Translations under genes and position numbers: made by a program
DNA from: Octopus vulgaris
Taxonomy: Eukaryota
Direction of reading: 5' to 3'
Assembly: GCA_951406725.2 (NCBI GenBank)
Contig: OX597820.1
Coordinates: 45,322,001 to 45,386,000 of the forward strand
DNA: 64,000 bases
The notes under the pieces: generated by a model
What the model was told of the DNA's origin: nothing
What the model saw: the letters and a program-made list of their open reading frames with translations, nothing else
The model's database searches: none
Part shown: in pieces, positions 3,961-60,378 of the stretch
Layout of the letters: each line of letters starts with the position of its first letter
Position numbering within the stretch: position 1 is the first letter of the stretch

Positions 3961-4166
3961 AATGTGACCTCGTGTGTACCGTTGGCGATTTTTTTTTCTC
4001 TGTCTTCCCTTCTCTGGATCTTTCCTTCTCCTATGTTTCCGACGAAGAGCTCCGCTCGAAACGTTAAACCCTCCTTCTTTCTTTCTTTCCTGAGCGTCCA
4101 ATAATACTATATTTGTTCCACGTCCTCGCGTTGTGTTTTTTTGTGCTTTCTTGTTTGGATTAACTT
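3961..4166 (+). mobile_element. Short about 200-bp hammerhead-bearing repeat inserted in the internal TA tract of a SINE
   Basis: Related copies at about 7101-7337, 7385-7570 and a 3' half at 25125-25227 share the ttcctgagcg...taatac segment, and the three longer copies also share gctcgaaacgtt. Confidence 0.65.
4035..4069 (+). ncRNA. Degenerate minimal hammerhead-like motif (GAAACGTT type)
   Basis: GTTT-CCGACGA-A-GAGC(tcc)GCTC-GAAA-CGTT-AAAC; one core change (CCGA for CTGA). Confidence 0.55.
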
Positions 4167-4997
4167 TATATATATGTGTGTGTGTTTGTCCCCTACCATC
4201 GCTTGACAACCGATGTTGGCGTGTTTACGTCCCCGTCCCGTAACTTAGCAGTTCGGCAAAAGAGACCGATTGAATAAGTACTAGGCTTAAAAGGAATAAA
4301 TCCTGGGGTTGATTTCTTCGACTAAAGGCGGTGCTCCAGCATGGCCGCAATCAAATGACTGAAACAAGTAAAAGAATATTATTTCCTTCACGTTTAGGAT
4401 ACATTATAATATTATTAACTACCCCCAACACTCCAGTATACTTAATCTCATCGAGCTCAGAAAGAAAAAAGCAAAGTTGACCGCGGCTGGATTTGGACAG
4501 AGATAGAGAGCCCTAACTGAATACCATTCAACATTTTACCCAATTTTCTAACAACTTTTATAATACACTTGAAGTACATTCTGAGTCTTGTAGGTTTGTA
4601 GTTTCGTGTGGATGATGTTTTATAACCAGGATAGAGCTGAAGGTAGCGGTGAAAGTCAATAAGGGTGACGAGAAGGGTATAAACAGGTTGGATAAGTGGG
4701 TACAATCGGAAAGGATATGCTGTTAAATAATTTCAAGAAGGATTCTATAGACTCATGCACTCTATAAAATATATGTTTCAGAACTGATTGTTCTGATTTT
4801 TTTTCTTTTTTTGAGTAGCTTTGTTATTTAAACAAACGTATAAGAATAGGAATAAAAAATTATTCATAGATTTTCGGAAACAGCTTAAAATTATATAAAA
4901 ATTTTCTCTAAAACATCAACTAATCACTTGAAAATATTGACTCAGTCTATAAATGCCGTCATGAAATTTCCTAGATATTTCAAAATATTCTATTCTA

Positions 4998-5420
4998 CTG
5001 AAGGCACAAGGCTCGAAATTTTTGGGGAGGGGTCCAGCCGATTAGATCGACCCCAGTACGCAACTGGTACTTAATTTATCGACCCCGAAAGGATGAAAGG
5101 TAAAGTCGACCTCGGCGGAATTTGAATTCAGAACGTGAAGATAGACGAAACACCGCTAAGCATTTCGCCCGGCGTGCTAACGTTTCTATTTCTTTACTAC
5201 CCACAAGGGGCTACACATAGAGGGGACAAACAAGGATAGACAAACGGATTAAGTCGATTACATCGACCCCAGTGCGTAACTGGTACTTAATTTATCGACC
5301 CATGAAGGATGAAAGGCATAGTCGACCTCGGCGGAATTTGAACTCAGAACGTAGCGGCAGACGAAATACCGCTAAGCATTTCGCCCGGCGTGCTAGCGTT
5401 TCGGCCAGCTCGCCGCCTTA
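4998..5420 (-). mobile_element. Two nested/tandem copies of SINE family B with different 3' tails
   Basis: Shared core gagttcaaattccgccgaggtcgactttgcctttcatcctttcggggtcgataaattaagtaccag (MetaSINE-like central domain, from recall). Confidence 0.9.
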
Positions 5421-6294
5421 GATATTTCAAAATATTAAAAGTACATTCACGTCGTAATTTTACAGTTGTTGCCTATAACGGTTGGTATTGGTTACTCACT
5501 GTTTCGAATCATTGCTGCGTGGGTAAGAAGCTCACTTTGCAACCATGTGGTTTCGCATTCAGTCCTACTACGCGGCACCTTGGACAAGTGTCTTCTACTC
5601 TAGCCCCCAGACTATCGAATGCTTTGTGAGTGTATTTGACAGACGGAAACTGTGTGGAAGCCCATCGGATACATAATTCATGCAAACATATATATATGTA
5701 TGTATCTGTGTCTGTTCTCGCCCATCCCTTGATAACCGGTGTCGGTTTACTTACGTCGCCGTAACTAGCGATTCGGCAAAAGAGACCGACAGAATAAGTA
5801 ATAAGATTTAAAATAAGTTCTGGGGTTCATTTGTTCGACTAAATCACATCATGGTCGCATTCCAGTGCTTGAAAAGTGTAAAAGACAAAAAATAATAAAT
5901 ATAAATAACTAAAACAATATTTGATCCCTCCTTCCGCAGACGAAACGTTTGAATCGCTTAAGGTGGATCGATTTTAAATATACATCACGTAATTACTTTT
6001 CGGTCTTTACACATCGATGCATAAACCAAATAATTTTATAAATGTTTCGAGTCTGAAAGACACTGACGCTACGTAATATAACGAACCTCTCTCTATAACG
6101 ACCATGATAAAATGCATAAAAGCGCTTATAATGAGAAAAAATATCAAACTACAATTATTTAGGACTGGGAAATATTGTATGTTCGGATAAGAATATAAAA
6201 ATGTCATTTGCTAATGAGAATATACCAAAAAATTTTCTGTGTCTTTCTATAAAAAACATTTTCACATAGAATTAAACATATTCTTTAATGGTTT

Positions 6295-6720
6295 TGATCG
6301 GATTGGGTGGGAGAGGACAGTACCCACGGTCTTCGCCGAAAATCCGTGACTAGTGAGATCGACGGAGCAATATTTTATTGCCTTTATTTAAGTTATAAAT
6401 GGCGGCTACAGGAAAGAAAAAAAAACATGTGCAGGGTGGGAATTTCAAAGAGCTAAAAGTCTTGGGAAAGAAATAGTCTAGCGCGGCGCCTAAGGGCGTG
6501 GAGGCGAGTGACGAGAGAAGACAAAAACGAATGAGTCGGATGGATTCGAGTGAAGGCGAGTCGAGATTAAACAGCTCGAGATTAAACAGAGACGTTGCTG
6601 AAGCAACGATACAAAAGATAGAGCACGTTTTGTGGACTAGAGTTTAGTGCCTGTAGGTCAACGTTACCGGTGGATGAGCAGACCTATGACTACAACCGCT
6701 CCAACTGTAACCATCCAGTT
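6295..6720. promoter_or_regulatory. Candidate promoter / first-exon region
   Basis: Locally CpG-rich, non-repetitive island with ATTGG (6302), TATAAA directly before AAATGGCGGC (YY1-like, 6397-6406), GGGAATTTC and GGGCGTGG motifs. Confidence 0.3.
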
Positions 6721-7026
6721 TTTTAAATAGCTAGTGCATCTACATAATATACGCATACTTTCTTTTTTAAAACAGTGGCGTGTGCGTGATTTGATTGACT
6801 GATACGAGCACATATTCATGAAAATGGTTGAGAAAATGAAAGACTGAATCTCTTTCTGCAATTGATTAAATCAGCAACTAGAAAATCATAAAACCATTCA
6901 TTCAACAGTTCTTTTCATGGTTGTTTGCCAGTTTGAGAAACATCGAGGGTGCATATTTGATTTTCATGTTGCATTGGTTTATTATTAATACAACATGACG
7001 CAGATGTACATGTGCATATTTGCATA

Positions 7027-7100
<74 letters not shown>

Positions 7101-7108
<8 letters not shown>

Positions 7109-7336
7109 ATTCGCTAGCTTTTGCACGCATTTTTTTCTCTCCTTCTTTCTGTGTTTTTTTTTTCTGTGTATCTTTCTGTTGAAGAGCGTAGGCTCGAAAC
7201 GTTAAAGACTTGTTTCATTTATATTTCCTGAGCGCCATACTAATACAATTGTTTGTTTGTATTCCACCCGCCTTCGTCTTTTGTTTATTTCCGTAAACCT
7301 GCCTTCGTCTTTTGTCTATTTTCATAAAGCTTACCG

Positions 7337-7374
<38 letters not shown>

Positions 7375-7570
7375 GTATATGAATGTTTGTATCCATGTAT
7401 CGTCTCTCTCTGTCTTCCCTTCTATTGGACTTTCCTCTGTTTCCCAAAAAGAGCGTCTGCTCGAAACGTTAGACCATCTTTCTTTCCTTCCCTGAGCGTC
7501 TGCTAATACTTTACATGTACCACGTCCTCGCGTTGTTATGTTTGTTCTTCTTTTTTTTTTTTGATTTACT
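7101..7570 (+). mobile_element. Two adjacent copies of the about 200-bp hammerhead-like repeat family separated by (TA)n
   Basis: Both contain gagc..gctcgaaacgtta followed by ttcctgagcg or ccctgagcg. Confidence 0.6.
7171..7208 (+). ncRNA. Degenerate minimal hammerhead-like motif (GAAACGTT type)
   Basis: TCTTT-CTGTTGA-A-GAGC(gtag)GCTC-GAAA-CGTT-AAAGA. Stem I covaries relative to the 4035 copy. Confidence 0.55.
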
Positions 7571-7662
7571 ATATCAATCTATCTATCTATATAAAATTTA
7601 CGACAGTTTGTTTCGGTTCCGTTTTACTTCAAGTTTCGCGGGCCCCTAACGGGAGTCCATAA

Positions 7663-7710
<48 letters not shown>

Positions 7711-8597
7711 AAATGCGAAAATATTAATTTCTGTGTGTCAGTGTGTCACACTTAGACTCCCCTCTCTCACTATTCAATCACACTATTCTTCATGATGAGG
7801 TAAGAGTAATAGTAGGTATAGAGGCGATGAGGGTAGTGGCGAACACAGAGAGAGAAAGAGAGAGACAGACAGAGACAGAGAGAGATAGAAAAAGAGAGGG
7901 AGAGAAAGTGAGACAAAGAAATTCATTAAAAATAGTAGTGTTGATGGTGGAAATGGGAGTGATAATAATAGAGAGAGAAAGAGCGGGTGTGTGAGAGAAA
8001 GAGGGAGATGATGTACAACTTTGTTTAACCATGTCTCTTTGACAGAAATTCCTGTAGCCAACATACTGAACGCTATCATTTTTGTTTTAGTTTTTGCTTT
8101 TTTATATAGATATACACACGCACTCACACACACACATATATAAAATACACTTTAATTGAAATAAAGTTCCCTCCAAATTGAACATATCTAATATAATAAA
8201 TGTGAGTATCAGTGTATCACACTTTTTTCAACTTTAATACATCCTTTCTACTGGAATCACAAGGCCTGAAATTTTGGGGGAAGGGATTAAGTCGATTACA
8301 TAGACTCCAGTACGTAGCTGGCACTAATTTTATCGATCGAAAGGATGAAAGGCAAAGTCGACCTCGGCGGAATTTGAACTCAGAACGTAGCGGCAGACGA
8401 AATACCGCTAAGCATGTCGTCCGGCGTGCTAACGATTCTACCAGTTCCCCGCCTTAATATGATATAATGATGAAATGATATATGATATGATAAATGTGAA
8501 TGTCAGTGTGTTACACTTTTTCTACTTTACTCCTACAGGCCGTCACCCAACATATCATACCATTTTGGAATCAGGCTGACTCCGTGAGTGAATTAAA

Positions 8598-9155
<558 letters not shown>

Positions 9156-9195
9156 GACTGTATTTGCGACTTTTTACATTTTTTTTTTGCCCCCA

Positions 9196-11644
9196 TGGCT
9201 CTTAAGAAAATTCATGGTGAAAGTGCTAAGCATCATGCCATAACGCTGGAAGATAAACAGGTTATAATAGAATGCCATGAAGAAGGTGAAAAAGCGGTAG
9301 CAATTGCAATTGTACATAATAAGGGCAAGATTTTAGCACATATCAAATCTGAAGCCCCAGGGATGAAGAACACTGTCATTAATAAAAGAGCCAAAATCTT
9401 TGAAGAAATGGAAAGTCTTCTTTCTCTTTGGACTGTTAGGTTGAATCGTCAGCGTGCTACTATTAGTCAAGAAATCATTCAAGAAAAAGATTTGTCTTTG
9501 TTTGAGGACCTGAAGAAAAATGCCCAGATGAGAAAGATGTAGAGTTCAAGGCAAGTCAAGGATGGTTCGTGAGATTTAAGGAGCGATGAGGTTATCACTC
9601 CATTAAGAAGCAAAGTGAAAGTGTATCAGCTGACTAACAAGCAGTAGCGGAATTTCCTAATGCATTTAAAAAAATCATCGAAGAAAACGGGTTTCCTCCC
9701 GAAGAGATATTTAACGTAGACGAAACTGGATTGTATTGGAAAAAATTGCCAGATCATTCATTCATTTCCAAGGAGGAAAAGCTATTCCAGGCTACAAGGT
9801 CTCAAAAGAACGTGTTGAGAGGTAATTGTGCAGATTTTAAGTAAAAGCCATTGTTTGTGTATCATGCACACAACTCCCGTGCTCTGAAGAACATACCCAA
9901 AGCATCTCTCCTTGTTATATGGACGGCTAATTCAAAAGCGTGGGTTACTGTTGTTGTTTTTGAAGATTGGTTCTTCAATCATTTTATCCCAGCAGCATAG
10001 AAGTACTGTAAGGAGAAAGGGATTCCTTTTAAGGCTTTTCTTATCTTAGATTGTAGATTTTGACCACAACGTTACCGTCGTATACCTCCCTCCGAACACC
10101 ACATCTCTTCTGTAGCCAATCGATCAGGGAATAATTGCTATCTTCAGGCTTTATTATATGAAGCGTATACTGCGACAAGCAATAGCTGCAACTGATCTTG
10201 ATGAGTCCATTATACTTTGTGACTTTTGGAAGAGATACGATATCTACAAAGCTGTACAGAACATAGCAGTGGCATTGAATGATGTACAGATCACGGCTAT
10301 GAACGGTGTATGGAAGAAGCTATGCATGCAATTCATGAATGATTTTAAGGGCTTTGAAAATGTTGCCATGAACAAAACGTTGGTGACTACGATCAAAGAA
10401 CTGAAAATGGATTTGGAGGAGGAGGATTTCACGGATTTATTTGAAAAAGACAAGCAGCCCTTGACGAACGAGAATCTGATAGAGCTTCAAGAGCAGCAAC
10501 ATCAAGAAGAGGTCGAACCTGAGCCACGTCACTTTACCTTTACAAAAATGCAGCAAGCATTTGCATATATCGAAAAAGGTCTTTCTATGTTCGAGGATAT
10601 GGATCGAAATGCTCAACGCCTTTCCAAGATTATGGGGGCTTGTCACAAAGCTTTTGCTCCTTATAATGTAATCCTCGAAGAAAAGAAGACAGTTCAAGGA
10701 ACTCTCAACCAGTTTTTTTAAGCGCATCGAACAACAAGAATAGCCAGAGTCATCTGATGATGTTAACGATCCACAGCCATCTATATCCGCGATGTAAACC
10801 ACCAAATTGTATGTACGTATTGATAAATTTAAAATTAATTTTTTTACAGGCGCAGGAGTGGCTGTGTGGTAAGTAGCTTGCTAACCAACCACATGGTTCC
10901 GGGTTCAGTCCCACTGCGTGGCATCTTGGGCAAGTGTCTTCTGCTATAGCCCCGGGCCGACCAATGCCTTGTGAGTGGATTTGATAGACGGAAACTGAAA
11001 GAAGCCTGTCGTATATATGTATATACATATATATATATGTGTGTTTGTGTGTCTGTATTTGTCCCCCTAGCATTGCTTGACAACCGATGCTGGTGTGTTT
11101 ACGTCCCCGTAACTTAGCGGTTCGGCAAAAGAGACCGATAGAACAAGTACTGGGCTTACAAAGAATAAGTCCTGGGGTCGATTTGCTCGACTAAAGGCGG
11201 TGCTCCAGCATGGCCTCAGTCAAATGACTGAAACAAGTAAAAGAGTAAAAGAGTATTGCAAAATGATAATAATTGCTGGATTTGTTGTTTAAGTTTAAAA
11301 AAGGCTTTTATTTACCATGTCTTATTGCAAAGAGCGTTCATAAATAAAGCGCCCGCGATGTACGATAAATACCGGCAAATTGTATTTGTAAATTTAGATT
11401 ACACTCTTTTTTACTGTACTGTATTAGAAAATAAAAATTATTTGTTTGTAAGCTTAAAATAGGTTTTTATTAACCAAGTATTATTGATTATTGCATTCAT
11501 AAATAAAACACAAAACTGAGATGGTTTATTATCATTTTAGCCTAGAGACAAGTAAATTCAGCCTAGCCTAGCCTAGAGACAAGTTAATTCGGCTTAAGTC
11601 GTGTTTCCTGGAACCAATTAACGACGTAGGGTGAGGTATGCCTG
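9196..11644 (+). mobile_element. Decayed Tigger/pogo DNA transposon (CENP-B HTH plus DDE_1), interrupted by a SINE
   Basis: FKASQGWFVRFK, IFNVDETGLYWKKLP, AWVT...FEDWF, LPPNTTS..QP.DQG motifs with stops and frameshifts. Right TIR ...gaggtatgcctg|TA ends at 11644. Left TIR not seen. Confidence 0.9.
10849..11254 (+). mobile_element. SINE family A, intact, inside Tigger
   Basis: Nearly identical to the copy at 51272-51684. Confidence 0.95.
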
Positions 11645-11651
11645 TATGTAT

Positions 11652-11695
<44 letters not shown>

Positions 11696-12160
11696 GTGTG
11701 TGTGAGAGAGAAAGAGATAGTGGGTGGGTGTGATTGTGTATGTGTGTGTGTTTGAAGAATGATTTCTTTAAATTAAAACTATTAATTACATAAAAGAAAG
11801 CTTAATAAACAGAATAACGCAAATCTTTTTCCTATTGCATACTCACTTTGGCTGTCTTCAGACACATGCATTATGGGATAATCTCTGCAGAAGAAGTTGT
11901 TTACACCATAACACACGTGGTTGAAAAGCTATAAATAGCGAAAGTGCTTACATTATACGAATATTTCCTTTTAAGAGATTTGTGGCACTCTGTATTTTCG
12001 AAGAATTTTATAGAATTAACATTTATTAATTTAAAAAATACCCAGACGTTGTGAAACCTTGTGCGTGTGTATATATATAGGTGTGTGTGTGTTTGTGTGT
12101 ATGTGTGTGTGTACATGTATTTATATATATATATAGATATATTATATATATAAAATATAT

Positions 12161-12207
<47 letters not shown>

Positions 12208-12263
12208 TAATATATATATAGATATATTATATATATATATATATAATATATATTATATATAGA

Positions 12264-12315
<52 letters not shown>

Positions 12316-12351
12316 GCATGTGTATATATGTATATAAATAAGCATATATAT

Positions 12352-12845
12352 ATTCTCGATCGGCAATTTTCGGACGATTCAAGTCCCTGTTAGTGTAAAT
12401 ATTTTCATTCATGTGCGTTAACTACAACATCAGAGCATTTTTAACTCATATTTCTAACAAAGTAGGTGACAATTATAATTCTTTTTGGTGAAATATTGCA
12501 ATCTGCTGTTTATGTTTATTTTAGCGAATCGCTAAATCATCCATTACTTTGGATGACGAAGACATTTATACTAATAGCGAAGCAAACTGAAGAAAGCCGA
12601 GATCGAGCGGGTTTAACTGATGAGGCAACGGAAATTGCTGAAACTGTCGTCAGTATTAAGAATTCACGATCGGCATTTTTCGGACGATTCAGGACCCTAT
12701 TAGTGTATATGCTTTCATACACGTGCGTTAACTACAGCATTAGAGTATTTTAGCTCGTATTTCTAGCAATGTTGGTATTTCTTAAAACCCTAGACACATT
12801 TAGTGACATTTATAATTCTCCTTTATCGTGAAATATTGCAACCCG

Positions 12846-12847
<2 letters not shown>
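12352..12847 (+). mobile_element. Hammerhead-containing non-coding element, about 1.5 tandem units of about 310 bp (retrozyme / Penelope pLTR-like)
   Basis: 12352-12505 is a diverged direct repeat of 12662-12847, with the ribozyme at the junction. (TA)n flanks both sides. Confidence 0.75.
12612..12660 (+). ncRNA. Type I hammerhead ribozyme, canonical core
   Basis: TTTAA-CTGATGA-GGCAA(cggaaa)TTGCT-GAAA-CTG(tcgt)CAG-TA-TTAAG. All three stems pair and the GUA cleavage triplet ends at 12655. Stem I can extend via gatcg/cgatc. Confidence 0.85.
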
Positions 12848-12941
<94 letters not shown>

Positions 12942-13687
12942 GGTATATTATCTATGTATAATATGTATATTTATATACGTACATATATACATACACACGT
13001 ACGCACGTACACACACATATTTATAATGGCGAAGGAAGATGTTGACGCACGTGTTGGTGTATTCATGTGCGTGATGGGTTTAATAGGGCGTGTGCTGGTG
13101 TGTAAGTGCACACGTGCGTATATGCACACACACACACATTCATTCATTCAGCACATTTCCCAGCGCTAAATGTTGCTTCACACCATAAAAATGTAATGTA
13201 AAAACGATTCTTCCTCTTCCTCCAAACTTGATCTCTTTCAGATATATCCTCTATAAAACAATATCACTAATTTATTCAGTCTCAGCGATTTAAATCTCTT
13301 AATTAAATCTCACACTCAGTTCATCAGACGCTTCGTTCTAAAAATTATGCATCACCTGAACATTGAATAAAACTTCAATAACCCGAAACGATGCTATTTG
13401 CTTAACATTTAAATGTTAAATGTTGGACGTTGCTACCGTGTGAGTTGCACGAGGACCAACAGCAGGTTTAAAAGTGAAGCTAATATGAGACAACTGTTCG
13501 TCGTTGTAATAAGGACAATAAATTATACGATGTTAGCAATATACTTAAATTAGTCTGCTTAGGAAATTACGTGAGAATTGTCTCACTGCTCTATAATTAA
13601 TATAGCGTGTAGATTTGAGTCTGTGTGTATGCGTGTAGGCGAATGCCTGTGTTTAACGCACGTACACACATACGTACAGTTGCTTTG

Positions 13688-13735
<48 letters not shown>

Positions 13736-13788
13736 AGTAGTTGAATGAATTATGTTAGTATGGATAATTCGGTTAACTCCATTCTTTC

Positions 13789-13828
<40 letters not shown>

Positions 13829-13858
13829 GTGTGAGTGTGTGTGTGTGTGTGTATGTAT

Positions 13859-13898
<40 letters not shown>

Positions 13899-14879
13899 TT
13901 GTATATATAAGGTATGTTATGTAGAAAAGACAGATAAGCAAAGGAAGGCTTAAGGAGAATATTCACATAGAAAGTTACATATACAAATAACTGAATGATG
14001 TAATCAAGTCTTATCTTTTCAGCTGTTCAGGTGCTGTATCCATGTATGAACACATAAATTCGCACACACACACACACGCCCCCCCCTCCACGTACAGGAA
14101 TCACTCGCGTTAAAAGTCTTATAGTCCCTGAAAACGTGCCGTAACTCAAACTGATTTAATATTTTGGCAACGAGGATGACTTTTTACCTTTCTACATCAA
14201 GTCTTTTTAAACATCAAGTTAAATATCTAGTAGAACGCTTCTTACTGTTTCTTTCCGCAACAGTACCTTCGGCTCTCCTCAATGACTTATTTCCAGACAT
14301 CTTGAATTGTAGGTAAATCTGGCAGTGCCGCTGATCAGCAATTATCCACAACAAATATGTAGTAAAAAAAGAATAGTAGGATGTAAGAACTGCTGTGTGA
14401 AAGCAAAATATTCGCATGAATGTAAGAATGAAAATGTGATAATGAATAAGTGGAGGAATGCGATGGGAGAAAGTACTATGTATTTACAGTTAGTTGAAGG
14501 GTTACCAGATTCATAGACACTTTACCCTTTGCACCTCTTACTTGAACTATAAAAATTCCATACTCTACTCCCACGTACATGAACGCGCACATAGACAAAT
14601 ACGCGTGCATGCACACTCTGTGTTGACATACGACGTATGTAGCTACAGGTATTGCTATCGTACTGTTACTATTAGTGGTGTTGCCAATTGGTTAGTCAAA
14701 AGATGCCAATTGATTATTCAGAAGTTGTTAATGGTAGTGGTTTTTGTTGTATTGGTTTTCATGTTTTCATGTTGGTGATGGTAGGAGTATTGTTGATAGT
14801 AGCTGTGGGTATATTGTTTATTATGTGTTGAAGAGAGGCGGGGGTATGAGATAGTACAGCAACTGTATCTCGTACACCC

Positions 14880-15665
14880 TGGTCGTAAGGAATTTTGATG
14901 TGGTTTTCAGGCGGTGAGATGCTGCCAACATGGTGGTACTTGACACGAATTCCGTCTTCTTCGGTGAATTGTTTCCTGGAAAGAAGGATTGCAACCACCA
15001 AGTAAATGTTAAACAGCACAGGGGCAAAGACACATCTTTGTTTTACTCCACTAGGACATCAAAGGGATCTGAGGTTTCACCTCCCATTGTTACTTTCGTT
15101 TGTATAAAATCATGAAACTTCTGGACAAATGAGAGAAACGTTGTTGAACAGCCAAACTTCTGAAGCAGGCGCCACAGCATGGAACAATTAACTGTGTCAG
15201 ATACCTTTGTTAGATCAATGAAAGTGTATCATCTGTTTCTCTGCAGTTCACAAACCTTCAAGAAGACGCGTCACAAATATCATGTCAGAGGTACTTCTTT
15301 CTAGTCGAAATCCATATTGAAATCCAAGCATAATCCAGATAACATGAAGTAGAAGACGTCGGAGGAGAATAGGAGAGAAGATCTTGCTGGCATAACCCAA
15401 AAGAGAGGATACCCTGCTGTTGCCTCACTCTGCACGGTCTCCCTTGCACTTGTAGACTGCACAGTTGGAATGTTTCTACTTGCCAGGTATAGTCTTTCTC
15501 TGCCAAGAGAAAGAAACAAAGAGTGAAGATGGGATATGAGGTAAGGCTCGCCATACTTGTAGATTCCATCTGGAATTCAATCTTTGCCGGGAGACTTCTT
15601 GCTTTTGTGATTTTGTTGTTGGTGGGGTTGTCAAGTTCTGTCGGGATAGGAAGACCTGGAATCAC
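14880..15665 (-). mobile_element. RTE-clade LINE RT fragment (inverted 5' part)
   Basis: Minus strand reads ...FIDLTKVSDTVN...GGETSDPFDV...CVFAPVLFNIY (RT domains up to 4). Confidence 0.8.
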
Positions 15666-15669
15666 TTCA

Positions 15670-16110
15670 AGTGCTGTGGGGTCCGTGGGGATTTACCGAT
15701 TCAGAGGATCTCTGACACTGGTCTCCACAATGAGGAGATACTTTGTCTGATCTTTGCATCTTTCGGGAGACTCAGCAAACAAGTCTTTTGGAGCAAGAAC
15801 CTTTGAGAAAGTACAAAAATCTCCGTTTATCGAGCTGCCTATTTATCCACCTTCCTGTACAAGTTTGAGTCTGGATCCTTTACTGGCGCAAGGTCAGACA
15901 ACTAGGAGCGTTCCATATCAAATCGCTCCAAAGTATCCTTGGTTTTTCTTGGCAGGACTTTCATACTCAAATCCTCCTGAGGGTTGGAATCTACAACGTT
16001 GAAGCCTGCATCCTCCGTCGTCTTCTAAGTCGGGTTGGACATCTGATTCGGACGCCGGGAAACCGACTCCAAAGGACGGTCCTCTTCAGCCTGATCGAGA
16101 CTGGATACAT
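15670..16110 (+). mobile_element. RTE-clade LINE 3' part of ORF
   Basis: ISDTGLHNEEI...FGRLSKQVFW...TKISVYRA...VGHLIRT, the typical post-RT RTE motifs. Confidence 0.75.
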
Positions 16111-16153
16111 GCCGTATTGATGTTCAAAAGTGCTCAAATAAATGAGACAAGGA

Positions 16154-16407
16154 TAATTAAACATTGGTCAAAGAACAAACATTAAAATGAGTTAACGACT
16201 TTATTTACGGTATCAAACCTCCAACATAATTCATATATAAATAAATATTACCATGGCTTTGATGATATATAAATAATATATAAATCAAAATATTTTGATT
16301 TGTATATTATTATATTATGAAAGCCATGGTAATGTATGATGAAGGTTTGATACGTATATTATGCCGTTAACTCATTTTAACGTGTGTTCCATGACCAGTG
16401 TTTAATT

Positions 16408-16408
<1 letters not shown>
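16154..16408. mobile_element. Fold-back (palindromic) MITE-like element
   Basis: taattaaacattggtca.../...tgaccagtgtttaatta termini, nested arms, and a perfect centre aaatcaaaat|attttgattt at 16291/16292. Confidence 0.8.
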
Positions 16409-16441
<33 letters not shown>

Positions 16442-17700
16442 TTATATACAAAGAGAGGGAGGAGAGAGAGATGTATATATACTTTTTGAGCTAGCATGAT
16501 CTCTTCCACCTCCCCCACGCCAAAAACTATATATAATAAAATCCTTCTATCAACAAACATTTTTATTAGAAGACGTGTATCTTACACCTGATTAACGCCA
16601 CCATCTGGTCATTAGATTTCTGACGAAAGGTCAACTATTTAAATGGCTTCACAAAACACTCCTTTAACACCCCACCATCTCCCAACTCCTCTTCTAATCA
16701 AGTATCTTGTGTTGACCATTCATTACTTTCACTCTCACAATGATTAACAAACCTGAACCCCACTCCAAACACACCCAGATCCGATATATAGAATCACAAA
16801 GCCCCAAATCCTCAGGTCAGTTTGACAGCGAATGCGAGAAAGTTCTCTAAAAATGTTAACAAGGAATTAAAAAAAAAAGTCATCTATATAACATATTACA
16901 GTCAGTAGAAACGGTTTTATTCTAAATCAGTATCTATTGCACATAGCAGAATTTTATTCAGCCCGGTGGCTATTCGCAAAGCCAGTTAATGCTTATTTAC
17001 CGTTTTTCTTTATACTGTACGCGATCAATCTCGTCTATGCATATAGCTGAGTGTTTTACACACCATTAATATAGCCCAACTGAGTCGAAATGCATCTGGC
17101 GTTTTTGCTATACGCTGCTGGGCCGCCTTCCGATATATATGACGGTATTAAACATAACACGTGCATAATAGGAATTAATCCTTGGACGAATACTACTGTG
17201 AATTTGCCTTTCAACGATATTCTAATTTTCTTTTATTCTTTTACTTGTTTCAGTCATTTGACCTCGGTCATGCTGGAGCACCACCATTAAGGTTTTTTTT
17301 TAATTCTTTGTAGGCCTAGTACTTATTCTATGGTCACTTTTGCCGAACCACTAAGTTACGGTGACGTAAACTCATCAACAAGTGATGGTGGGGGTCAAAC
17401 ACAGACACAAAGACACACACACAGATACATATATATATATGCACGACAGGCTTCTTTCAGTTTCCGCCTATCAAATCCGCTAACAAGGTCCGAGGCTATA
17501 GTAGAGGACACTTGCTCAGGATGTCACGCAGGGGGACTGAACTCAGAACCATGTGGTTGGCAAGCAAGCTTCTTACCGCACATAGAAAGCTATTTAATTT
17601 AATAATACCTCTATTGCATATAACGGTTAAATACACACACACACACACACACACACATACACACACACATACACAGGCACACACACACACACACACACAG

Positions 17701-17734
<34 letters not shown>

Positions 17735-18304
17735 GTACACACACACACACAAGTACACACACACACACACACACATATATCTGTGTTGCACGCACAGAAC
17801 TTGGAAGTCACTTGCATTTTTCTCCTGCCTGCTGATATTTTAACATTCTATTAAGAATAAATAAAATATTTTTTGCTCCTGATCGAAATCGCATTTCCTA
17901 CGAGGCTATTTCGATAGAAAAAAAACCCGTGGCTGAAATGAAAAATAAAAATTTGACTTTATCTGGTGCATAACCACAGATACTTATTTGTATATAAGAC
18001 GTATGCCTTTGCTTCGTATGATTATGTATAAGTATCTGTGATTATGTTTCTTTGAATATTGTGCTGAAGATGGGAAATAAGTTCTTTTTATTGCTTTAAT
18101 CTCAAAATTGAACCCAAATTCACAATTTACTGTGATGTTTCATTTAGTATTTTTCATTTGCTCACTTGCAGCCCGTATGTTTTAGGAGTTATACACTATT
18201 TTTTTACTGCCTTTGGTGTCTTCTTTCAGCATGTTGGAGAAGGTTCTTTCCTGATACCTTTAATGTAATTATATAATTTATGTATATAATTATTAATTTA
18301 GTAT

Positions 18305-18757
18305 ATATATAATTAGTGTTAAGTGTCGGGAAAAAAAGTACTTTATACTATTAGGTGCACAGGATCTTCAAGCAAGTTATGGCTGAAAATTATGAGATTC
18401 GCATGTCTATATATAATTTTCTTATCAAAGGGTTTTGGGTTGAGAGAAAGTATGATAACGAGGGAAAAAGAGAGGAAACAAAGAAAAGAAAAAGAAATAG
18501 GAAAATGACAGAAGATTAAGAAGGTGAAAAAAAGAAGATATTTATGCGTGAATAGATGTATATAAATATCATGCTTTCTCTCCACCACAGCACCCTATGA
18601 CAAGAAAACTATATATAGATATGCAACTCCCATAAATTTTCATCCGTAACTCGCCTGAAGATCCTGTGTACCTATAGATGAAATGCGCCCAAAATCAAAT
18701 ATATTAATCTCTATTATACTATAGAGTATTCTTTTTCCCGCCGCTTAACACTTATTA
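18305..18757. mobile_element. Element with about 150-bp diverged inverted arms and a decayed hammerhead-like core (Penelope pLTR-like)
   Basis: 18310-18460 is the approximate reverse complement of 18565-18755. CTGAAGA...GAAA at about 18655-18683 lacks a matching stem I. Confidence 0.45.
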
Positions 18758-18772
18758 TATATATATATATAT

Positions 18773-19059
<287 letters not shown>

Positions 19060-19956
19060 GAGAGAAAAAGGGAGAGAAAGAGAGACGGAAATAATATTAA
19101 GATACAAGGATGTGTATAAGAAGTGGTAATGATAGAAGAAGAGTGTGACAACGGAGAGAAATGAACGTAGGGAAATCAGGATTGGCGAGAGAAAAGATAC
19201 CGGAGCTGTTTAAAACTAATCATTGCAGGCAGTCAAGTTTATTTAGTGAAAATGAAGAGATTTTCATTGGTGTGAACAATTTTATGAGTATCCGCATTAA
19301 ATCATTGAGAGAGAAGACCATTGAAAGAAAGAAAAAAAGAAATAGAATCAAACAAAAGGGAAATACAAATGAATAAATATATGAATATGATGTGAAATTT
19401 CTAAACATATTAACAGTATTCAATTTGTATTTGTTTATTTATTAACAATTTAGTGTACGGAAACTCGTTGTTACTTACTGTAAACATAAAAAACAAGTCC
19501 GTTCACAATGACAGCAATTTGCAGGTGACTAACAGTTTGGGAAAATTAGAGAGCGGAATATATATATATATATATATATATGCTTGAGTGGTCACGTGGC
19601 ATTGATAGTTTTTTTTTGTAAGTGGCGCGAATGATTTAGTATTCATGGTTTTAAAATAGCAGCATGTAATTTGTTCAACTCCATAACTGGTAATCAAATC
19701 ATACGAAAGCCGAGCCAGCGTAGGAGTTTCTATGTCGGTCATGAACAAACTGCAGCCTGTGGGACTTTCTGAATGGCACTCGTTAGATGCCAAATCCATT
19801 ATCGCACTGAAGAAAAAGACAGGTAGGTGCAAAGACATGCATATAGAATACTTTATTAGTACAGATTTCAAATAACCAAACATTAGACGCCCCTTCAAAG
19901 CGTACGGCTACAAGATAAACCCAATTTCTCATTTCAGCCTTTAGAAAAAAACACTT

Positions 19957-21466: not shown

Positions 21467-21532
<66 letters not shown>

Positions 21533-43435: not shown

Positions 43436-43465
43436 TATCATCATTATCATCATCATTATCATTAC

Positions 43466-43521
<56 letters not shown>

Positions 43522-43522
<1 letters not shown>

Positions 43523-43768: not shown

Positions 43769-43846
43769 TTATCATCATCCTCATCATCATCATTTTTATT
43801 ATTATTATTATTATTTTTATTTTTATTATTATTATTATTATTTTAA

Positions 43847-43883
<37 letters not shown>

Positions 43884-43903
43884 CATTATCATCGTCGTCG
43901 TCG

Positions 43904-43945
<42 letters not shown>

Positions 43946-44005
43946 CCAGTATCATGATCATCATCATATCATTATTAAATTATACAATTCTGCTTCTCTT
44001 TCCAG

Positions 44006-44458
44006 TGATTGATTCATCATTCCAGAAGAGAGTGTGTCCTGCCGCCATAGACAAACTTGGAGCACACCTTGAAGATTTGTTAGGCAATATGAGTCAAAAA
44101 TTATACCGCAACAACAGTAACGACAGGAGTCTAAGTTCCAACAGCAGCACCGGTAGTAGAAGCAGTCAAACTAGTAGCAATGGTGATGGCGATAGCCTCA
44201 AGTGGTCGGAACAAAGTTACAGTGTCGGTGACATTTTGGACAAGTTTCGACTGCCTCAAATCGTTCGGTTGCATGCGAGGGGACAACCAGTACATTCAAG
44301 CTTACCGATACCGTTCAACATTGCTCGTGAACAGTTACTGTTCTTCGATTCAAGAAACATTCGGCAGTTGATTGCTGAAAATTTAGTAGACACATCGGAA
44401 CCCGGATCAAACATGGATTCGTACTTGGAAGATGTTGTCATTCCTGAAGACTATCCAG
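44006..44458 (+). CDS. Exon of a CABIT-domain (GAREM/Themis/Serrano-like) protein; probable start ATG at 44089 (44006-44088 is either 5' UTR or coding)
   Basis: Acceptor cttctctttccAG ends at 44005 and donor ccag|GTTAGT starts at 44459. Translation contains WSEQSYSVGDILDKFRLPQIVRL and VVIPEDYPG, matching the CABIT N-terminal W...LPQIV and IP.xY.G.F motifs. The exon ends in phase 1. Confidence 0.8.
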
Positions 44459-47712: not shown

Positions 47713-48857
47713 GTTTATTTGTGCAGCCAGTAACCATAGGAAACAGTACCGAACTAATCACTTACGATAATATTGAATCTTTGGTATCACACGAAGCCAA
47801 AGGATTCCTGACTCTACACACAATACAAGGTATTCGTAAGACATCATCTCTTGGAAGCATCAGTCAATCAAATGCAGGATCCTGTCCAAAATTGTACCCC
47901 AGAGGAAGTATATTTCTAATTGAAGAAATTCAAAAATGGTCTTTTAGTTCAAAAGGAAATCTTCAGAATAGCCATCACGCTCCTTCCATTATGAAAGTTC
48001 CTTCAGCAAACCGGAAATCCACAGTGCATTTTGCTGACTCAAACCAAACAAATGAATACGATTCTAGAGAAAACATAAACCAGATATCTAAAAGAGAAGG
48101 ATCATCTAGAACATCTTCTCCATTGTCACCAGCAAGAAAAATCCCAAGCATACAAAGGCTAAGTTCCAGTATGAATGACAACTCATTGTTAAGTAGTAGT
48201 TTGAAAACAAGACCAGTAGTTAGGTCTGCTTCCGTAGGATCATCAAGGTCAATAGATAATGGTCTAGTTCTCAAATGCAAAGATGCAAGTGGACGAAATG
48301 TCTATTTCCCGTTTCATACTGAAGGGAGTTTTATTGAAGTATTAACGCATCCAACAAACCCGAATAAACTCTCAATACAAGTGAAAGAATTGTTAAACAT
48401 GAAAGTTCTTCCTCCCATGATATGCTTTGTCTATGGCAAAAAACGTCTTTTATTAACATCTGGTTTTCTAAAACTCAAGGAGATTCAAGAACATCGATCG
48501 GTAGTTGTGTGTGCGGTAAACAGGACTTCATATGTCTTATTCGAGTTGCCTGTCACTTCAAACATGAAATTTTCTTTGTCTCTCAATAAGAATCTTTTAA
48601 CGTCCCCTCATATTCAAAGAGCATTAAATCTCTGCGAAGAGAATGCCACGAATTTCAGCAGTGATATTAAAGTGGTTACTAAGTTGTCTTCAAAGTCAAT
48701 CGAGTTTGGCAACAACGGCCTCACTACTTTCGGTTTGGAAACATTTAAACAGCTGGAAGACATAGCCGAAGTGAGTTCCAGTGAAGAAGAAGATGATGAT
48801 GAAGGTACGAACAAACAGTTTAATCGTATACCTGTCGAAGGAGTGATATATCTGTAG
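47713..48857 (+). CDS. Terminal coding exon of the same CABIT-domain protein
   Basis: Acceptor ttctatttgcAG ends at 47712. G|GT TTA TTT GTG joins in frame to give IPEDYPG-LFVQP. The 378-codon non-repetitive ORF contains the CABIT-like LKCKDASGRNVYFPFHTEGSFIEV and LPPMICFVYG motifs and stops at TAG 48855-48857. ATG44089 to stop is 1515 nt (504 aa). Confidence 0.85.
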
Positions 48858-49653
48858 AAAAAAAAAATGTTGTTGGTCAGTTTTATTGGTGGTTCACGGC
48901 AAACATAATCACCTTCTATTGTAAATAATTATACCCCTCCTCCTCCTCCTCCTCTGTAATTCGGCAGTTATCAGCCACAACGATGAGATACATACATAAA
49001 TGAAGCAGAGGATATACATACATTAAGAAAATACAAAGAAATATGACTGAAATACATACATGCACGCACGTTTTACACATGTATGTACATATACATATAT
49101 AGGAGAATAGTGAGTGGAACCCTTTAAACTTATTCGGAAAATTTCCAAGCCCACAAAATCCTTATTGCCGCAGAATACAGCGATACAAACGTAACACCAG
49201 CAGCATCTCCGCCGGCTTTTCAGTTTCTAGAAACTAATAAATCCAATGTATTTTTGGAGGAATTCCCTCTAGGAAAAGTCTCTGCTTTTAAAACCTCAAC
49301 GTGAGAGTTGTATTTCGGAAGTAATGTGATCGCCCTTCTTTTGGGATGTAGGATTTGTTTAGTAAAGAGGTACTGCTGTTGAAGATGTTATTCGTATCCT
49401 TCAGTGAATCAACTTTGTTGATAATGAGATCATGCCAGCATCCTGCACATGAGTATAATCATATCTTGGCATTATTCAGTCTAACAACCAGGGAACTAAA
49501 AAAGCCAAAGAAAAAAACACCAAGAAGGTACTGACGATTCTCATTCAGCTTCTACAAACATGTTCATATTTAGTTGATGAAAAAATCAGTCAAGCTGATA
49601 TTACAGTATATTGCAATGTGTTACAACGCTATAAGCTAATTCTAGATCATGAC

Positions 49654-49685
<32 letters not shown>

Positions 49686-50179
49686 AAACTAGAAAATTAC
49701 AGTTTCACACTATATTCTCCTGTCTTGCACTATTCATTCGTACTCTATGACCATTATAGCTGACAAACCTGCAACATTGAACTGTCTGTGTAATAACAAC
49801 AAATTGGCCTTTTGAATTACATGCTCAATCCACCCGATGGCTTTCCATACAGATTCCGTTTGCCTAATCTGGGGCTATGACATTGACACAAGCCAAGATG
49901 CTATACAGTGGAATCGATCCCAGGACATCCTAATTGTGAAATGATTTTCTTAATGGCTCAGCCACGCCTTTGTCATACGCACATACATACATACATACAT
50001 ACATACATACATACATACATACATACATACATACATACACTCAGCCACATACACACACACACACATATATATATACACCATAATATCGAGAACAAAGGCC
50101 ACAGTGAACTCCCCGCGGGGGAGTAGAAACTCTAAGTTTCGAGTAGCGTCCTTCTTTAGAAAAAGTTGACAGCTTGATT

Positions 50180-53991: not shown

Positions 53992-54038
<47 letters not shown>

Positions 54039-54042
<4 letters not shown>

Positions 54043-54465
54043 CCGAATTTTATAGTATTAAATATCCATTTCGGTTGATCATACTAATCGGTTTCGCATA
54101 AAGAATACAATGGATACCACTTGCCAGTTTCACAGCAGACTCAACTAAGAGTCATAAACCAATCCCCTGAACCCTTTTCCGTTTCACCACTTTTTTTCAC
54201 ACCAGCCGCCGATCGGTTGTACTAATCCACCTCTGACAATAGAGAGCAGTCACCATATTCCCTTCCATATCGGCTATCTCTGATGAGCGTAAAATTATAT
54301 AATCGGATTATTACCTAACACTCCATTGTATTCTTTACGCGAAACCGATAAGTAAGATCAGCCGTGATGGATATTTAATACTATAAAATTCGGATAATAG
54401 ACCCACTCTACTGACAGACATGAGTGCATCTTCTCCCTGACTTATGGTCTTAGACGACTCACGCA
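54039..54465 (+). mobile_element. Penelope-like pLTR with inverted 5' extension and hammerhead
   Basis: 54039-54114 is the reverse complement of about 54322-54397. The element starts directly after (TA)n. Confidence 0.65.
54271..54364 (+). ncRNA. Minimal type I hammerhead ribozyme with long stem II loop
   Basis: CGGCT-ATCT-CTGATGA-GCGTAAA...TTTACGC-GAAA-C(cgataa)G-TA-AGAT-c-AGCCG, with GUA cleavage after 54354. Confidence 0.8.
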
Positions 54466-57527: not shown

Positions 57528-57766
57528 CAGTAATCCCTCGCCATATCGCGGTTCACCTATCGCGGTTCACCTATCGCGGTTCACCTATCGCGGTTTATTA
57601 TTTAAACTTACGTCGATTCCTCCGTGATGTTGTTTTACATTTATAATAAAATAAACATATATATAAATTTTAAAATATTAAAAAAAAACACTGTTTCTAC
57701 TTCGCGGATTTTCACCTATCGCGGGGTTTTTGGAACGTAACACCCGCAATAGTCGAGAGATTACTG
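57528..57766. mobile_element. Tigger-like MITE
   Basis: cagtaatccctcg...cgagagattactg termini; internal tandem tatcgcggttcacc x3. Confidence 0.75.
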
Positions 57767-59497
57767 TTTAGAATGTATATGTATATGCTCATATATATAT
57801 ACGTAAAGGTAAGATCCAAGGATCAAGATGTAGGAAGTTAGTAAGCTTCGAGCAGTCCGTAGGAGGTGTAATGTAGACTCGGGTGAAATTCCTCTTCCAT
57901 ATTTATCATATATACGTGCATTCGAACGTAGCAGCGGACAGCTAACCTTTAACCGCTATTTGGATCACGTTGTGTCCACTACTCTGATTGGTTGGTATTT
58001 GTGCAATTTGTCTCATACTCGATTGCCCCAGCTTGCCGCGGATAACCAGTAAGAGGCTCTAAATTGGATCACGTGGGACTACCCTGTTTCAGCCTACAGC
58101 CCCTTATAAAAAATTCAGCTTTTCGTTGTTCCGGGTCTTTGGTTCCAGACATTTTAAGGTCTAGCCACTGACCACGAAGACACAGTCAGTTCCAGCGTCA
58201 ACACTACCACAGCAGCTATATTGAGACTTACCAACTTTGTCACCATGACATTCGACAGCGTTGCGGCAACCTCCTTCTTCATAGCCACCATCATGTCCTT
58301 CTTAACGTCGTCAACATCATCTCTCTACGTATACAGCTCAGCAAGCAATTCACCCCGGTTTCAACAGTTCACTGTTTGTGAATGATTTCACAACGGATAT
58401 ACAATGATTTCACAACGAATATACAACCTGCATGAACTCCCGTGTAAGTGACCCAGGCAGCAGCATTACAGCCACGACTTCACGTACGACATGTATCTGT
58501 AACCGGCTCAGCATCATGGCCGCGACTTCTTGATACAGTATTTCAACTACCGTGTACGATTGACTACGAACTGGTATTATTATCTTTCTTGTGTCTATGA
58601 ACTTCTCACTTCGATGGCTTATGGACACTTTCACTGTCTTCTTATTGCCATCCTTAAATATTCTTAACATGCGCATGCATCTATGCCTACACATACATAC
58701 AGTTTGTTCTCATGACGGCCTGTCAATTATTTTGTATACATGACATATACAGACACACATGTTACTACATCAATAAATGTTCTCTTAATCATTTTTATGC
58801 GGTTGTGTCTCCCATCTGGCATTTATATGTTCTATTCAATTTCTCTTTATTGTAACGGTAGTGTAATGTGGTACAAAAGATCCATTCTCCTCACCTCACA
58901 TCGCACGGCCATTACAGAGGTATAAAATACAACTTTCGAGAACAATTTATTAACGTAGAAGGGTGCAAATTTCTCCCACATTGAAGTTCGATCAGCAGAA
59001 AAAAATTATTTCATAGTTCACGGTTAGCAGCTGGGGTTGCTGTGTATACGAATAAAAATCCAAATTTAGGGAATGGAGTATATAAATTCAGGCTACATAA
59101 TTCGTTGCTATTGTGTTAAATTGTCGTGTGCCCAAATTGGGTCAAATGCGTTGTTTTTTTTTCAATATTTAATTTTGCTTGCAATAGACGGTTCTTTCGG
59201 TCAAACTATCGTATCTTCCTGTGCTTCAGATGAAAATTTATCAAAGTGTAGTACAACGGTTTAGCATTTTTCAAAAGTGTAGTAAGCCCACCTATGACAG
59301 TTTTGCAAAAGGTTTCTGGCTGAAAATATCATACATGCATTGAGTTACGATGTTATGTACTCAATAAAGTATTATTATTAAGATGAAACTGTTGCTAATG
59401 TAAAAAGAAACGGAATGGTGAAACTATTTTTTCGTTTTCTGAAAAAAGCAACGTTTTGGACTTACGACACTTTTGCATAATACCAACGATATGTTTC

Positions 59498-59636
59498 ATA
59501 GCTAGCGGAACCTCGGAAGTAGTAATTACCCAAACGAGGGTTACATTCATTTGACTAAGGTATCTTCGGCCTGACGAGTAGCTAGCGGATTACCCCTCGT
59601 TTGGGTAGTTACTACTTCCGAGGTTCTGCTAGCTAT
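59498..59636. mobile_element. Small fold-back element, about 42-bp inverted arms
   Basis: tagctagcggaacctcggaagtagtaattacccaaacgaggg / ccctcgtttgggtagttactacttccgaggttctgctagcta. Confidence 0.75.
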
Positions 59637-59855
59637 ATATAGGCATGGCTATATAGTAATAAACTTACTTCCCAACCACGTGATTCCAGGTTCAGTCCCA
59701 CTGCGTACCACCTTGGGCAAGTGTCTTGTACTGTAGCCTCGGCATAGCGTCGACTGTGGGCCGGTAGCTGTGTACAGTCGCCTCAACGCCGCCCAGAGCT
59801 GTATCTGAGAAAGTAACAGTTAGTTCATAATATATATGTACGTATGTGTGTGTGT

Positions 59856-60378
59856 GTATAATGTTGCAAACCTCTTCGTGGTATGGTGGGACAGACAGTT
59901 TAAACAGTGCCTAGCGACCCGTAACATCCACTTAGCTATGTACACTCGCTACGTTGAGGACATTAACCTTGTCGTGAAATGTAATAGTAATATAGATATA
60001 GACACAGAGATAGACTCTCCTCTAAATGAAGAACAGGTGATGACTGCTATACAACACATAGCTGACTCTATTCATAGCAGTATAAAAGTTACCGTGGACT
60101 ACCCCTCTAATAGATTACCTGTCCTAGATACTGAGCTGTGGATGGAAAATACTATGGTTAACGGAACCGTTAAACCCTGTATACTCCACTCACACTATTG
60201 TAAACCTATGGCTAATCCACTGGTAATCCGTAGTGACTCAGCGATGTCGAGTACTGCCAAGCTCAACATCCTGGTGGCAGACTTAGTTAGAGTAATGAGG
60301 AATGTATCTCCACTATGCCAACCACAAGAACGACAACAACACATCCAGCACTTCATATTCCGAATGCAATGCTCATGA
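59856..60378 (+). mobile_element. Penelope-like element reverse transcriptase fragment
   Basis: ANLFV...YTRYVEDI (decayed YVDD)...IKVTVD...LPVLDTEL...HYCKPM...SAMSSTAKLNIL follows the PLE RT domain 4-7/thumb motif order. Confidence 0.75.

What the first reader, a model, noticed from the sequence alone, without database searches (positions are those of the whole stretch)
3961..60378. Window-level pattern: several ribozyme-bearing non-coding families exploit (TA)n, alongside a Penelope RT remnant
Seen: at least four unrelated hammerhead families plus decayed candidates (about 18655, about 37945-37990, about 50130-50160 minus) in 64 kb, each abutting TA repeats, and a PLE RT fragment at 59856-60378. 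Inference: a nested ecology in which SINE family A supplies TA/CA tracts that are colonised by ribozyme-delimited RNAs mobilised in trans by Penelope-type RT/GIY-YIG enzymes. All the intact ribozymes are on the + strand, the same sense as the CABIT gene, so any within its transcription unit could cleave pre-mRNA.
Basis: inference. Interest (0 to 1): 0.7.

Follow-up and report, generated by a model that had tools for sequence, protein, structure and literature searches.

The report
Penelope retrotransposon ends with hammerheads
This stretch holds leftover ends of several Penelope-type jumping genes, each with a predicted self-cutting RNA motif next to a TA repeat, at the density found all over this genome; the pattern is ordinary, except that the family of the local reverse-transcriptase fragment carries a swapped core base pair that is predicted, not shown, to still cut.

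Summary
The motifs are real. Five unrelated families (A/B, D, G, I, E) show both hammerhead core boxes; two more (F, H) are broken here. (TA)n at their 3' ends is strongly enriched (11-28 of 29 copies per family against 5%). But this is known Penelope-like-element (PLE) biology. B, E and probably F are 5'-truncated ends of protein-coding PLEs; only A and D look non-autonomous. The window is typical (5 motifs; genome sample 4.2 per 64 kb). SINE tracts are not preferred (11 of 145 copies against 62 of 577 TA tracts). Family B copies do not start at the cut site (18 against 3,443). The RT fragment shares no terminal repeat with these families. RNA contigs place bases 1-44005 in a 63.8-kb intron of the CABIT gene, so five motifs there are sense-intronic, but the gene is spliced, and myosin genes show no sense excess (7 sense, 12 antisense). 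One new detail: the RT fragment's own family carries a G3-C8 core (4,071 exact copies), which I found in print only as an engineered mutant; one key paper was unavailable. The scan has noted PLE hammerheads on other DNA of this genome.

The parts
1..44005 (+). Window part of a 63.8-kb intron of the CABIT-domain gene; the upstream exon ends about 19.8 kb before the window
   Evidence: RNA-run contigs join an exon at G000:C7:45302134-45302163 to 44006
3961..4166 (+). Family A: discrete ~215-nt unit with minimal hammerhead (core CCGACGA at 4039, palindromic stem III), inserted in the TA tract of a SINE
7104..7337 (+). Family B: 5'-truncated end of a Neptune/Nematis-type PLE, minimal hammerhead (core CUGUUGA at 7176), (TA)n on both sides
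7407..7556 (+). Decayed relative of A (78% identity)
12354..12847 (+). Family D: partial tandem of a ~340-nt unit; canonical CUGAUGA hammerhead at 12617 with 4-bp stem III; retrozyme-like
18352..18752 (.). Family H: decayed copy (18590-18752 +, CUGAAGA at 18655, 3' half of the motif lost) with inverted arm 18433-18352
25125..25222 (+). Family B piece starting within 1 nt of the predicted cut site, inside a SINE TA tract
37235..38294 (.). Family G pieces: 37856-38026 + (U3-A8 core at 37950), 38294-38119 -, 37320-37235 -, 37872-37784 -
38353..38633 (+). Family I: 5'-truncated dispersed repeat with canonical CUGACGA hammerhead at 38412 and palindromic stem III
44006..44458 (+). CABIT-gene exon (first coding exon seen)
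47713..49950 (+). CABIT-gene exon, ORF to 48857, 3' UTR covered to at least 49950 (broken at the TA tract 49644-49694)
   Evidence: (CABIT E=2.8e-4, below Pfam cut-off)
54037..54462 (+). Family E: end of a Hydra-type PLE; canonical hammerhead at 54280 with long stem II; 5' inverted arm 54114-54037
57804..59636 (.). Family F inverted insertion: + arm 59540-59636 (CUGACGA, no GAAA); - arm in three pieces 59543-59489, 59099-58918, 57871-57804
59798..60375 (+). Family W: RT fragment 59863-60375 with an inverted piece of its own 3' UTR (59855-59798); its ribozyme is not in the window

Best explanation
The motifs sit in the 3' ends of at least seven separate repeat families, three of which (B, E, F) are joined to Penelope-type RT or GIY-YIG coding remnants elsewhere in the genome, and each copy was likely inserted independently at (TA)n by a Penelope-type enzyme. 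Shown: the families, their cores and stems, the TA enrichment, the coding links for B and E (F: two loci), inverted 5' arms, and average density. Inferred from known PLE biology: the GIY-YIG domain nicks AT-rich DNA, reverse transcription starts inside the terminal repeat, and early stop leaves a short end that happens to include the ribozyme. A (fixed ends, no ORF) and D (tandem unit, no shared ORF) are likely copied in trans, A most likely by a B-type element. Most motifs have a 2-bp palindromic stem III and are predicted to cut poorly as lone copies, which would explain why the host intron tolerates them.
For: Coding remnants upstream in the same orientation: B 3 of 29 loci, E 11 of 29, F 2 of 29. 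TA4 within 20 nt of the 3' end: A 25, B 28, D 13, E 12, F 11 of 29 each, against 1,599 of 31,506 random positions; 20 of 31 unselected copies. TA also at the 5' side in 17 of 29 A and 13 of 29 B copies, as for insertion into an existing tract. Inverted arms in E, F, G, H, W. Density 5 against 4.2 per 64 kb. A: 14 of 15 unselected copies start within -7 to +4 of one point. Literature: hammerheads in PLE terminal repeats, lone minimal motifs not cutting (PMC4209133); (TA)n insertion of Hydra, microsatellite bias of Neptune (PMC8557442); AT-rich cleavage and ribozyme cutting not needed for insertion in vitro (PMC11167929).
Against: No ORF link was found for A (0 of 29), G (0 of 18), D (one weak, unshared hit in 29), H or I; only seven protein pieces were used as queries and only 1.5 kb upstream of A, D and G copies was read. 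All six motifs with both core boxes in the window are on + (two-sided P=0.03, noticed after the fact), and 4 of 5 in 60 kb of flanks. In family I the TA-rich 3' stretch is shared among copies, so part of it belongs to the element. Clade names rest on motifs, not on a tree. No cleavage or transposition was measured.
Confidence: 0.85

Rival explanations
1. Nested ecology: the SINE supplies the TA/CA tracts that ribozyme-delimited non-coding RNAs colonise in trans.
For: Two window pieces (3961, 25125) lie in SINE tracts. Copies abut the SINE tract more often than random 200-nt segments do (11 of 145 against 3.6%, P=0.02). A and D look non-autonomous.
Against: SINE tracts are 62 of 577 TA tracts (10.7%), and copies use them at 7.6% (P=0.28) or 1 of 31. 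B, E, F are ends of coding elements. Cut-site starts are 0.5% in B. The ribozyme lies in the middle of A.
Confidence: 0.07
2. The sense-oriented intronic ribozymes cut the CABIT pre-mRNA and have been kept or co-opted to tune the gene.
For: Six motifs lie in sense in the intron (five in the window, one upstream). D has a canonical core and a 4-bp stem III and could act alone. Sense motifs in myosin genes are fewer than the genome average predicts (7 in 468 kb, P=0.05), a hint that some do cut.
Against: Correctly spliced contigs exist in four studies. Myosin genes show no sense excess (7 against 12; 7 against 10 after removing a local duplication). Window copies are not better kept than their families: D has lost its palindromic loop base. 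Lone minimal motifs did not cut in PMC4209133.
Confidence: 0.06
3. The motifs are chance look-alikes in an AT-rich, repeat-rich genome.
For: No Rfam match at gathering score; folding z-scores of the minimal motifs are -0.9 to -1.3.
Against: 39 hits against 5-6 in shuffles. With pairing of positions 3 and 8 left free, 13 of 15 hits pair them Watson-Crick in three different ways. Stems are kept while loops vary.
Confidence: 0.02

Closest known systems
Minimal hammerheads in PLE terminal repeats (Cervera and de la Pena 2014, PMC4209133; parts 1-2 of 4 read, supplements not seen)
   Same: Type I, palindromic 2-bp stem III, extra base between 9 and 10.1, many lone truncated copies, opposite-strand pairs, a U3-A8 family.
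   Different: Here families with A6U (B), U4C (A), A9C (W2) and G3-C8 (W) cores occur; those parts of the paper name only U3-A8.
Neptune/Nematis EN+ PLEs (PMC8557442; passages read)
   Same: B and W: RT, CX3-4CX2C linker, C-terminal GIY-YIG with C-C-H-H residues, (TA)n flanks, inverted arms.
   Different: Neptune and Nematis were not told apart; B and W proteins are only distantly alike.
Hydra-clade PLEs (PMC8557442, section 11 read)
   Same: E: CxCX5C linker, CxxC before the conserved E, CxH after N, canonical hammerhead, (TA)n. F shows similar EN remnants.
   Different: Only broken ORFs were seen; the DKT and RWK motifs were not checked.
Metazoan non-LTR retrozymes (PMC7229834, passages; bioRxiv 10.64898/2026.07.22.740005, part 1 of 5 and passages)
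   Same: D: ~340-nt tandem unit, canonical type I motif, no ORF, AT-rich.
   Different: D copies are old (71-87% identity), mostly partial tandems with one motif; no circular RNA was tested.
Engineered C3G/G8C hammerheads (PMC11167929, PMC3884650; passages)
   Same: G3-C8 pair as in family W; the double mutant partly restores cutting in a PLE ribozyme.
   Different: W carries it naturally, in 4,071 exact copies, and some family copies keep long open frames.

Membership tests
Type I hammerhead ribozyme | Core boxes CUGANGA and GAAA with A15.1-U16.1 and H17 | tested here: met
   D, E, I canonical. A, B, G, W deviate in the first box and are variants; F, H and 50130 do not meet it in the window.
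Type I hammerhead ribozyme | Three paired stems and a 3-8 Watson-Crick pair | tested here: met
   13 of 15 unconstrained hits pair 3-8
Type I hammerhead ribozyme | Self-cleavage | not testable with these tools
   Only contigs were available
Type I hammerhead ribozyme | Rfam hammerhead model at gathering score | tested here: not met
   0 matches in window, L082, L194; lowers the claim to Rfam's families, not the resemblance
EN+ Penelope-like elements | Single ORF with RT and C-terminal GIY-YIG | tested here: met
   W: 1,025-aa frame, Pfam GIY-YIG above cut-off; B and E by motif in broken ORFs, no Pfam hit; not found for A, D, G, H, I
EN+ Penelope-like elements | Terminal repeat with hammerhead; tandem or inverted 5'-truncated copies; alternative 3' tail | tested here: met
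EN+ Penelope-like elements | Placement by RT phylogeny | not tested
   No reference PLE set was on hand
Neptune/Nematis clade (B, W) | CX2-5CxxC linker and CCHH motif | tested here: met
   read from translations
Hydra clade (E, F) | CxCX5C linker, CxxC/CxH around E and N, (TA)n insertion | tested here: met
   E; F only by similarity to E's EN in 2 loci
Hydra clade (E, F) | DKT and RWK motifs in the RT region | not tested
   No locus reached that far intact
Non-LTR retrozyme (D) | Short tandem unit with type I hammerhead and no ORF | tested here: met
Non-LTR retrozyme (D) | [quoted passage not shown] | tested here: not met
   The window copy has one motif; two motif-like matches within one locus in 3 of 30, so this copy is a remnant
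Non-LTR retrozyme (D) | Expressed as circular RNA | not testable with these tools
   No reads were laid on D

The most novel reading that the evidence does not exclude
A young PLE family, whose RT fragment lies in this window, uses a natural G3-C8 hammerhead core in over 4,000 identical copies, while its sister family (54% protein identity) has C3-G8 with A9C and a compensatory stem II change. PLE ribozymes in this genome would then sample three Watson-Crick forms of the 3-8 pair, be invisible to CUGANGA searches, and number about 160,000; some elements reported to lack hammerheads would carry them.
Probability: 0.45. Interest if true: 0.5.

Novelty: new member of a known kind. Interest (0 to 1): 0.3.

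Why it matters
The window-level pattern adds members to known classes and needs no new mechanism. Two things are useful. First, about 160,000 hammerhead-like motifs in one genome (extrapolated from 590 kb) give a large natural test of whether such motifs are selected against in introns; the myosin sample hints at a sense deficit. Second, family-wide core variants (G3-C8, U3-A8, U4C, A6U, A9C) show that standard descriptors undercount PLE ribozymes and offer ready substrates for the open question of what these ribozymes do.

Tried and rejected
Rfam at E<=1 gave 208 matches; the 150 shown were microRNA-like hits on simple repeats and none a hammerhead, 58 were not shown. Folding z-scores did not separate minimal motifs from shuffles; only E (-2.3) and F (-2.9) stood out among 10 folded. 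A DNA search with 25126-25222 returned nothing, not even itself, so it was replaced by pattern counts. The family E count (0 of 30) came from a wrong spacing in my pattern and was dropped in favour. Seven 'F2' hits in the random sample were SINE sequence carried in my query and were dropped before counting. The main descriptor misses family I (3-bp stem II) and was tuned on window motifs, so counts are floors and favour the window. The candidate at 31798 (-) had no copies in 1.9 Mb of fetched loci. No holder run was on record as RNA; the runs are guessed RNA and hold contigs only. Twenty planned myosin stretches were not obtained, so that test rests on 49 of 69. Lunse et al. (RNA Biol, PMC5785218) is not held; only its title was seen, and it or the supplements of PMC4209133 and PMC3088659 may already show a natural G3-C8 core. 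Searches for that core. No control junction was counted for the cut-site test in B, and no other family was tested that way.
Full report
Setting. The window is G000:C7:45322001-45386000 of a 2.8-Gb animal assembly. That it is an octopus is my recall from its repeats and comes from no call. I took 'SINE family A' to be the repeat with a central TA/CA tract, such as 10850-11235; the finding does not define it. Family letters A-I, W and W2 are my own labels.

What is in the sequence. A relaxed type I descriptor finds five motifs, all on +: 4039 (A), 7176 (B), 12617 (D), 37950 (G), 54280 (E). A looser version also finds 38412 (I), whose core is canonical in 10 of 12 other copies. Each is a dispersed family. 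A and B are 71% alike over 129 nt; the others are unrelated in sequence. F (59571) lacks GAAA on +; its minus arm carries the other half and is split by an insertion. H (18655) is a decayed copy of an old family. The 50130-50160 candidate has no copies and no fold signal. Among the 30 best loci, cores were CCGACGA in 26 (A), CUGUUGA in 30 (B), CUGAUGA in 20 (D) and 23 (E), and mixed in F; best loci lean towards the window's own subfamily.

More than chance, but not special. In 59 stretches of 10 kb at fixed positions on 25 chromosomes the descriptor gave 39 hits, against 6 and 5 in two shuffles; that is 4.2 per 64 kb, and five in the window is unremarkable. The excess extrapolates to about 160,000 motifs. 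With pairing of positions 3 and 8 left free, 13 of 15 strict hits in 1.1 Mb pair them: C-G 9, U-A 2, G-C 2.

TA flanks. (TA)4 starts within 20 nt of the 3' end in 25 (A), 28 (B), 13 (D), 12 (E) and 11 (F) of 29 copies each, against 1,599 of 31,506 random positions. Of 45 family pieces in the random sample, 31 reach the 3' end and 20 of these are followed by TA. Descriptor hits have TA within 200 nt in 21 of 39 cases against 19% (P=2e-6). TA also lies 5' of 17 A and 13 B copies, as expected for insertion into an existing tract. In family I the TA-rich 3' stretch is shared among copies and partly belongs to the element.

The SINE is not a preferred supplier. Of 577 TA tracts in the random sample 62 abut the SINE's inner edge; 11 of 145 family copies and 1 of 31 unselected copies do (P=0.28 and 0.25). 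In the window two pieces do (3961, 25125). SINE tracts are used about as often as any TA tract.

Relation to PLEs. B copies run upstream into RT and GIY-YIG remnants with a CX4CX2C linker in 3 of 29 loci. E copies run into an RT and an endonuclease with a CxCX5C linker, CxxC and CxH in 11 of 29 loci, the marks of the Hydra clade, which inserts into (TA)n (PMC8557442 section 11). F has similar remnants in 2 of 29 loci. A has none in 29, and 14 of 15 unselected copies at 85% identity or more start at one point: a discrete unit, likely copied in trans by a B-like element. D is a tandem unit of about 340 nt without a shared ORF, like a non-LTR retrozyme. G, H and I have PLE-like inverted arms but no ORF link was found. 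The elements are not bounded by their ribozymes: the motif lies mid-element in A, and in B a TA junction at the cut site occurs 18 times (3 in the control) against 3,443 intact sites. This fits the report that a PLE inserts uncut RNA in vitro (PMC11167929, passages).

The RT fragment. It belongs to family W, with copies 84-85% identical and frames up to 1,025 aa ending in GIY-YIG. Its 3' end shares nothing with A-H, so its presence beside them is coincidence in a genome full of PLE ends. Its terminal repeat has no CUGA box but reads GUGAACA, an extra G, a 5-bp stem II, GAAA, a palindromic stem III and a 7-bp stem I: a G3-C8 core. The exact pattern occurs 4,071 times with a variable loop II and no control match. 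The sister family W2 (54% protein identity) has C3-G8, C at position 9 and a compensatory change in stem II. U3-A8 is in print for PLEs (PMC4209133) and elsewhere (PMC3088659 section 8). G3-C8 I found only as an engineered mutant that partly rescues cutting. Lunse et al. and the supplements could not be read, so novelty is open.

The gene and the strand. Contigs from runs guessed to be RNA, in four studies, splice 44458 to 47713, and in three studies splice 44006 to an exon 19.8 kb before the window. A, B, D, G, I and one more A copy upstream therefore lie in sense in a 63.8-kb intron. The 3' UTR is covered to at least 49950; E and F are not shown to be inside the gene. Six of six on + has P=0.03 after the fact; 4 of 5 hits in 60 kb of flanks are on +. 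As a control I read 468 kb inside myosin genes, whose spans I inferred from ordered same-strand exon matches (49 of 69 planned stretches): 7 sense and 12 antisense hits (P=0.36; 7 and 10 without a local duplication), and 8 of 20 sense by family search. There is no sense excess; sense hits are, if anything, fewer than the genome average predicts (P=0.05). The gene is spliced, and lone minimal motifs did not cut in vitro in PMC4209133. D and I are the window motifs most worth assaying.

Other papers seen: bioRxiv 10.64898/2026.07.22.740005 (part 1 of 5, passages) derives animal retrozymes from PLE terminal repeats and reports fewer in introns; PMC7229834 (passages); PMC6765202 (passages); PMC13282606 (passages) lists 31 recently active PLE families in an octopus and does not use the word hammerhead.

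Verdict. The observation largely stands. The explanation is the ordinary life cycle of several PLE families and their non-autonomous derivatives, not a SINE-fed ecology or a locus-specific control. Interest 0.3; the natural G3-C8 core is the part worth a bench test.

Noticed in passing
L082:6431-6490; L089:664-720 (just downstream of the window): Family W hammerhead-like motif with a G3-C8 core, 4,071 exact copies; sister family W2 has C3-G8 with C at position 9.
   Followed up: yes
L295 (two copies), L307, L299: Further U3-A8 motifs in families unrelated to G.
   Followed up: no
window 4039, 59571; loci L090-L119, L150-L179: Two unrelated families (A, F) carry C at position 4; F's mix of cores fits CpG decay from CCGACGA.
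   Followed up: partly
window 7176; other loci: B-type cores vary at position 7 but keep U at position 6 (24 of 43 A/B-type matches outside the query loci), a change at a normally fixed base.
   Followed up: partly
window 59098-59489: An insertion with short inverted ends splits the minus arm of F inside the loop of stem III.
   Followed up: no
window 16150-16425 and 36490-36800: Long inverted-repeat elements, not identified.
   Followed up: no
window 21966-22577 (-), 62025-62576 (-), 62785: Pif1-helicase fragments (Pfam PF21530) and a repeat end followed by TA in 20 of 20 copies; probably Helitron remnants.
   Followed up: partly
window 9200-10720 (+): Broken DDE_1 (Tigger/pogo-like) transposase.
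   Followed up: partly
window 50226-50390 (-) and 13733-13791: Other repeats whose ends abut TA (14 of 17 and 4 of 5 copies); no hammerhead seen in the window pieces.
   Followed up: no
window 46881-47627: A 750-bp degenerate (CATA)n array in the second intron; family W's 3' UTR also holds (CATA)n.
   Followed up: no
L338: Two 620-bp inverted arms of family I enclose an unrelated L1/Tx1-like LINE.
   Followed up: no
window 44006-48857: The CABIT-domain gene has a non-coding or short upstream exon 63.8 kb away; its Pfam match is below the curated cut-off.
   Followed up: partly
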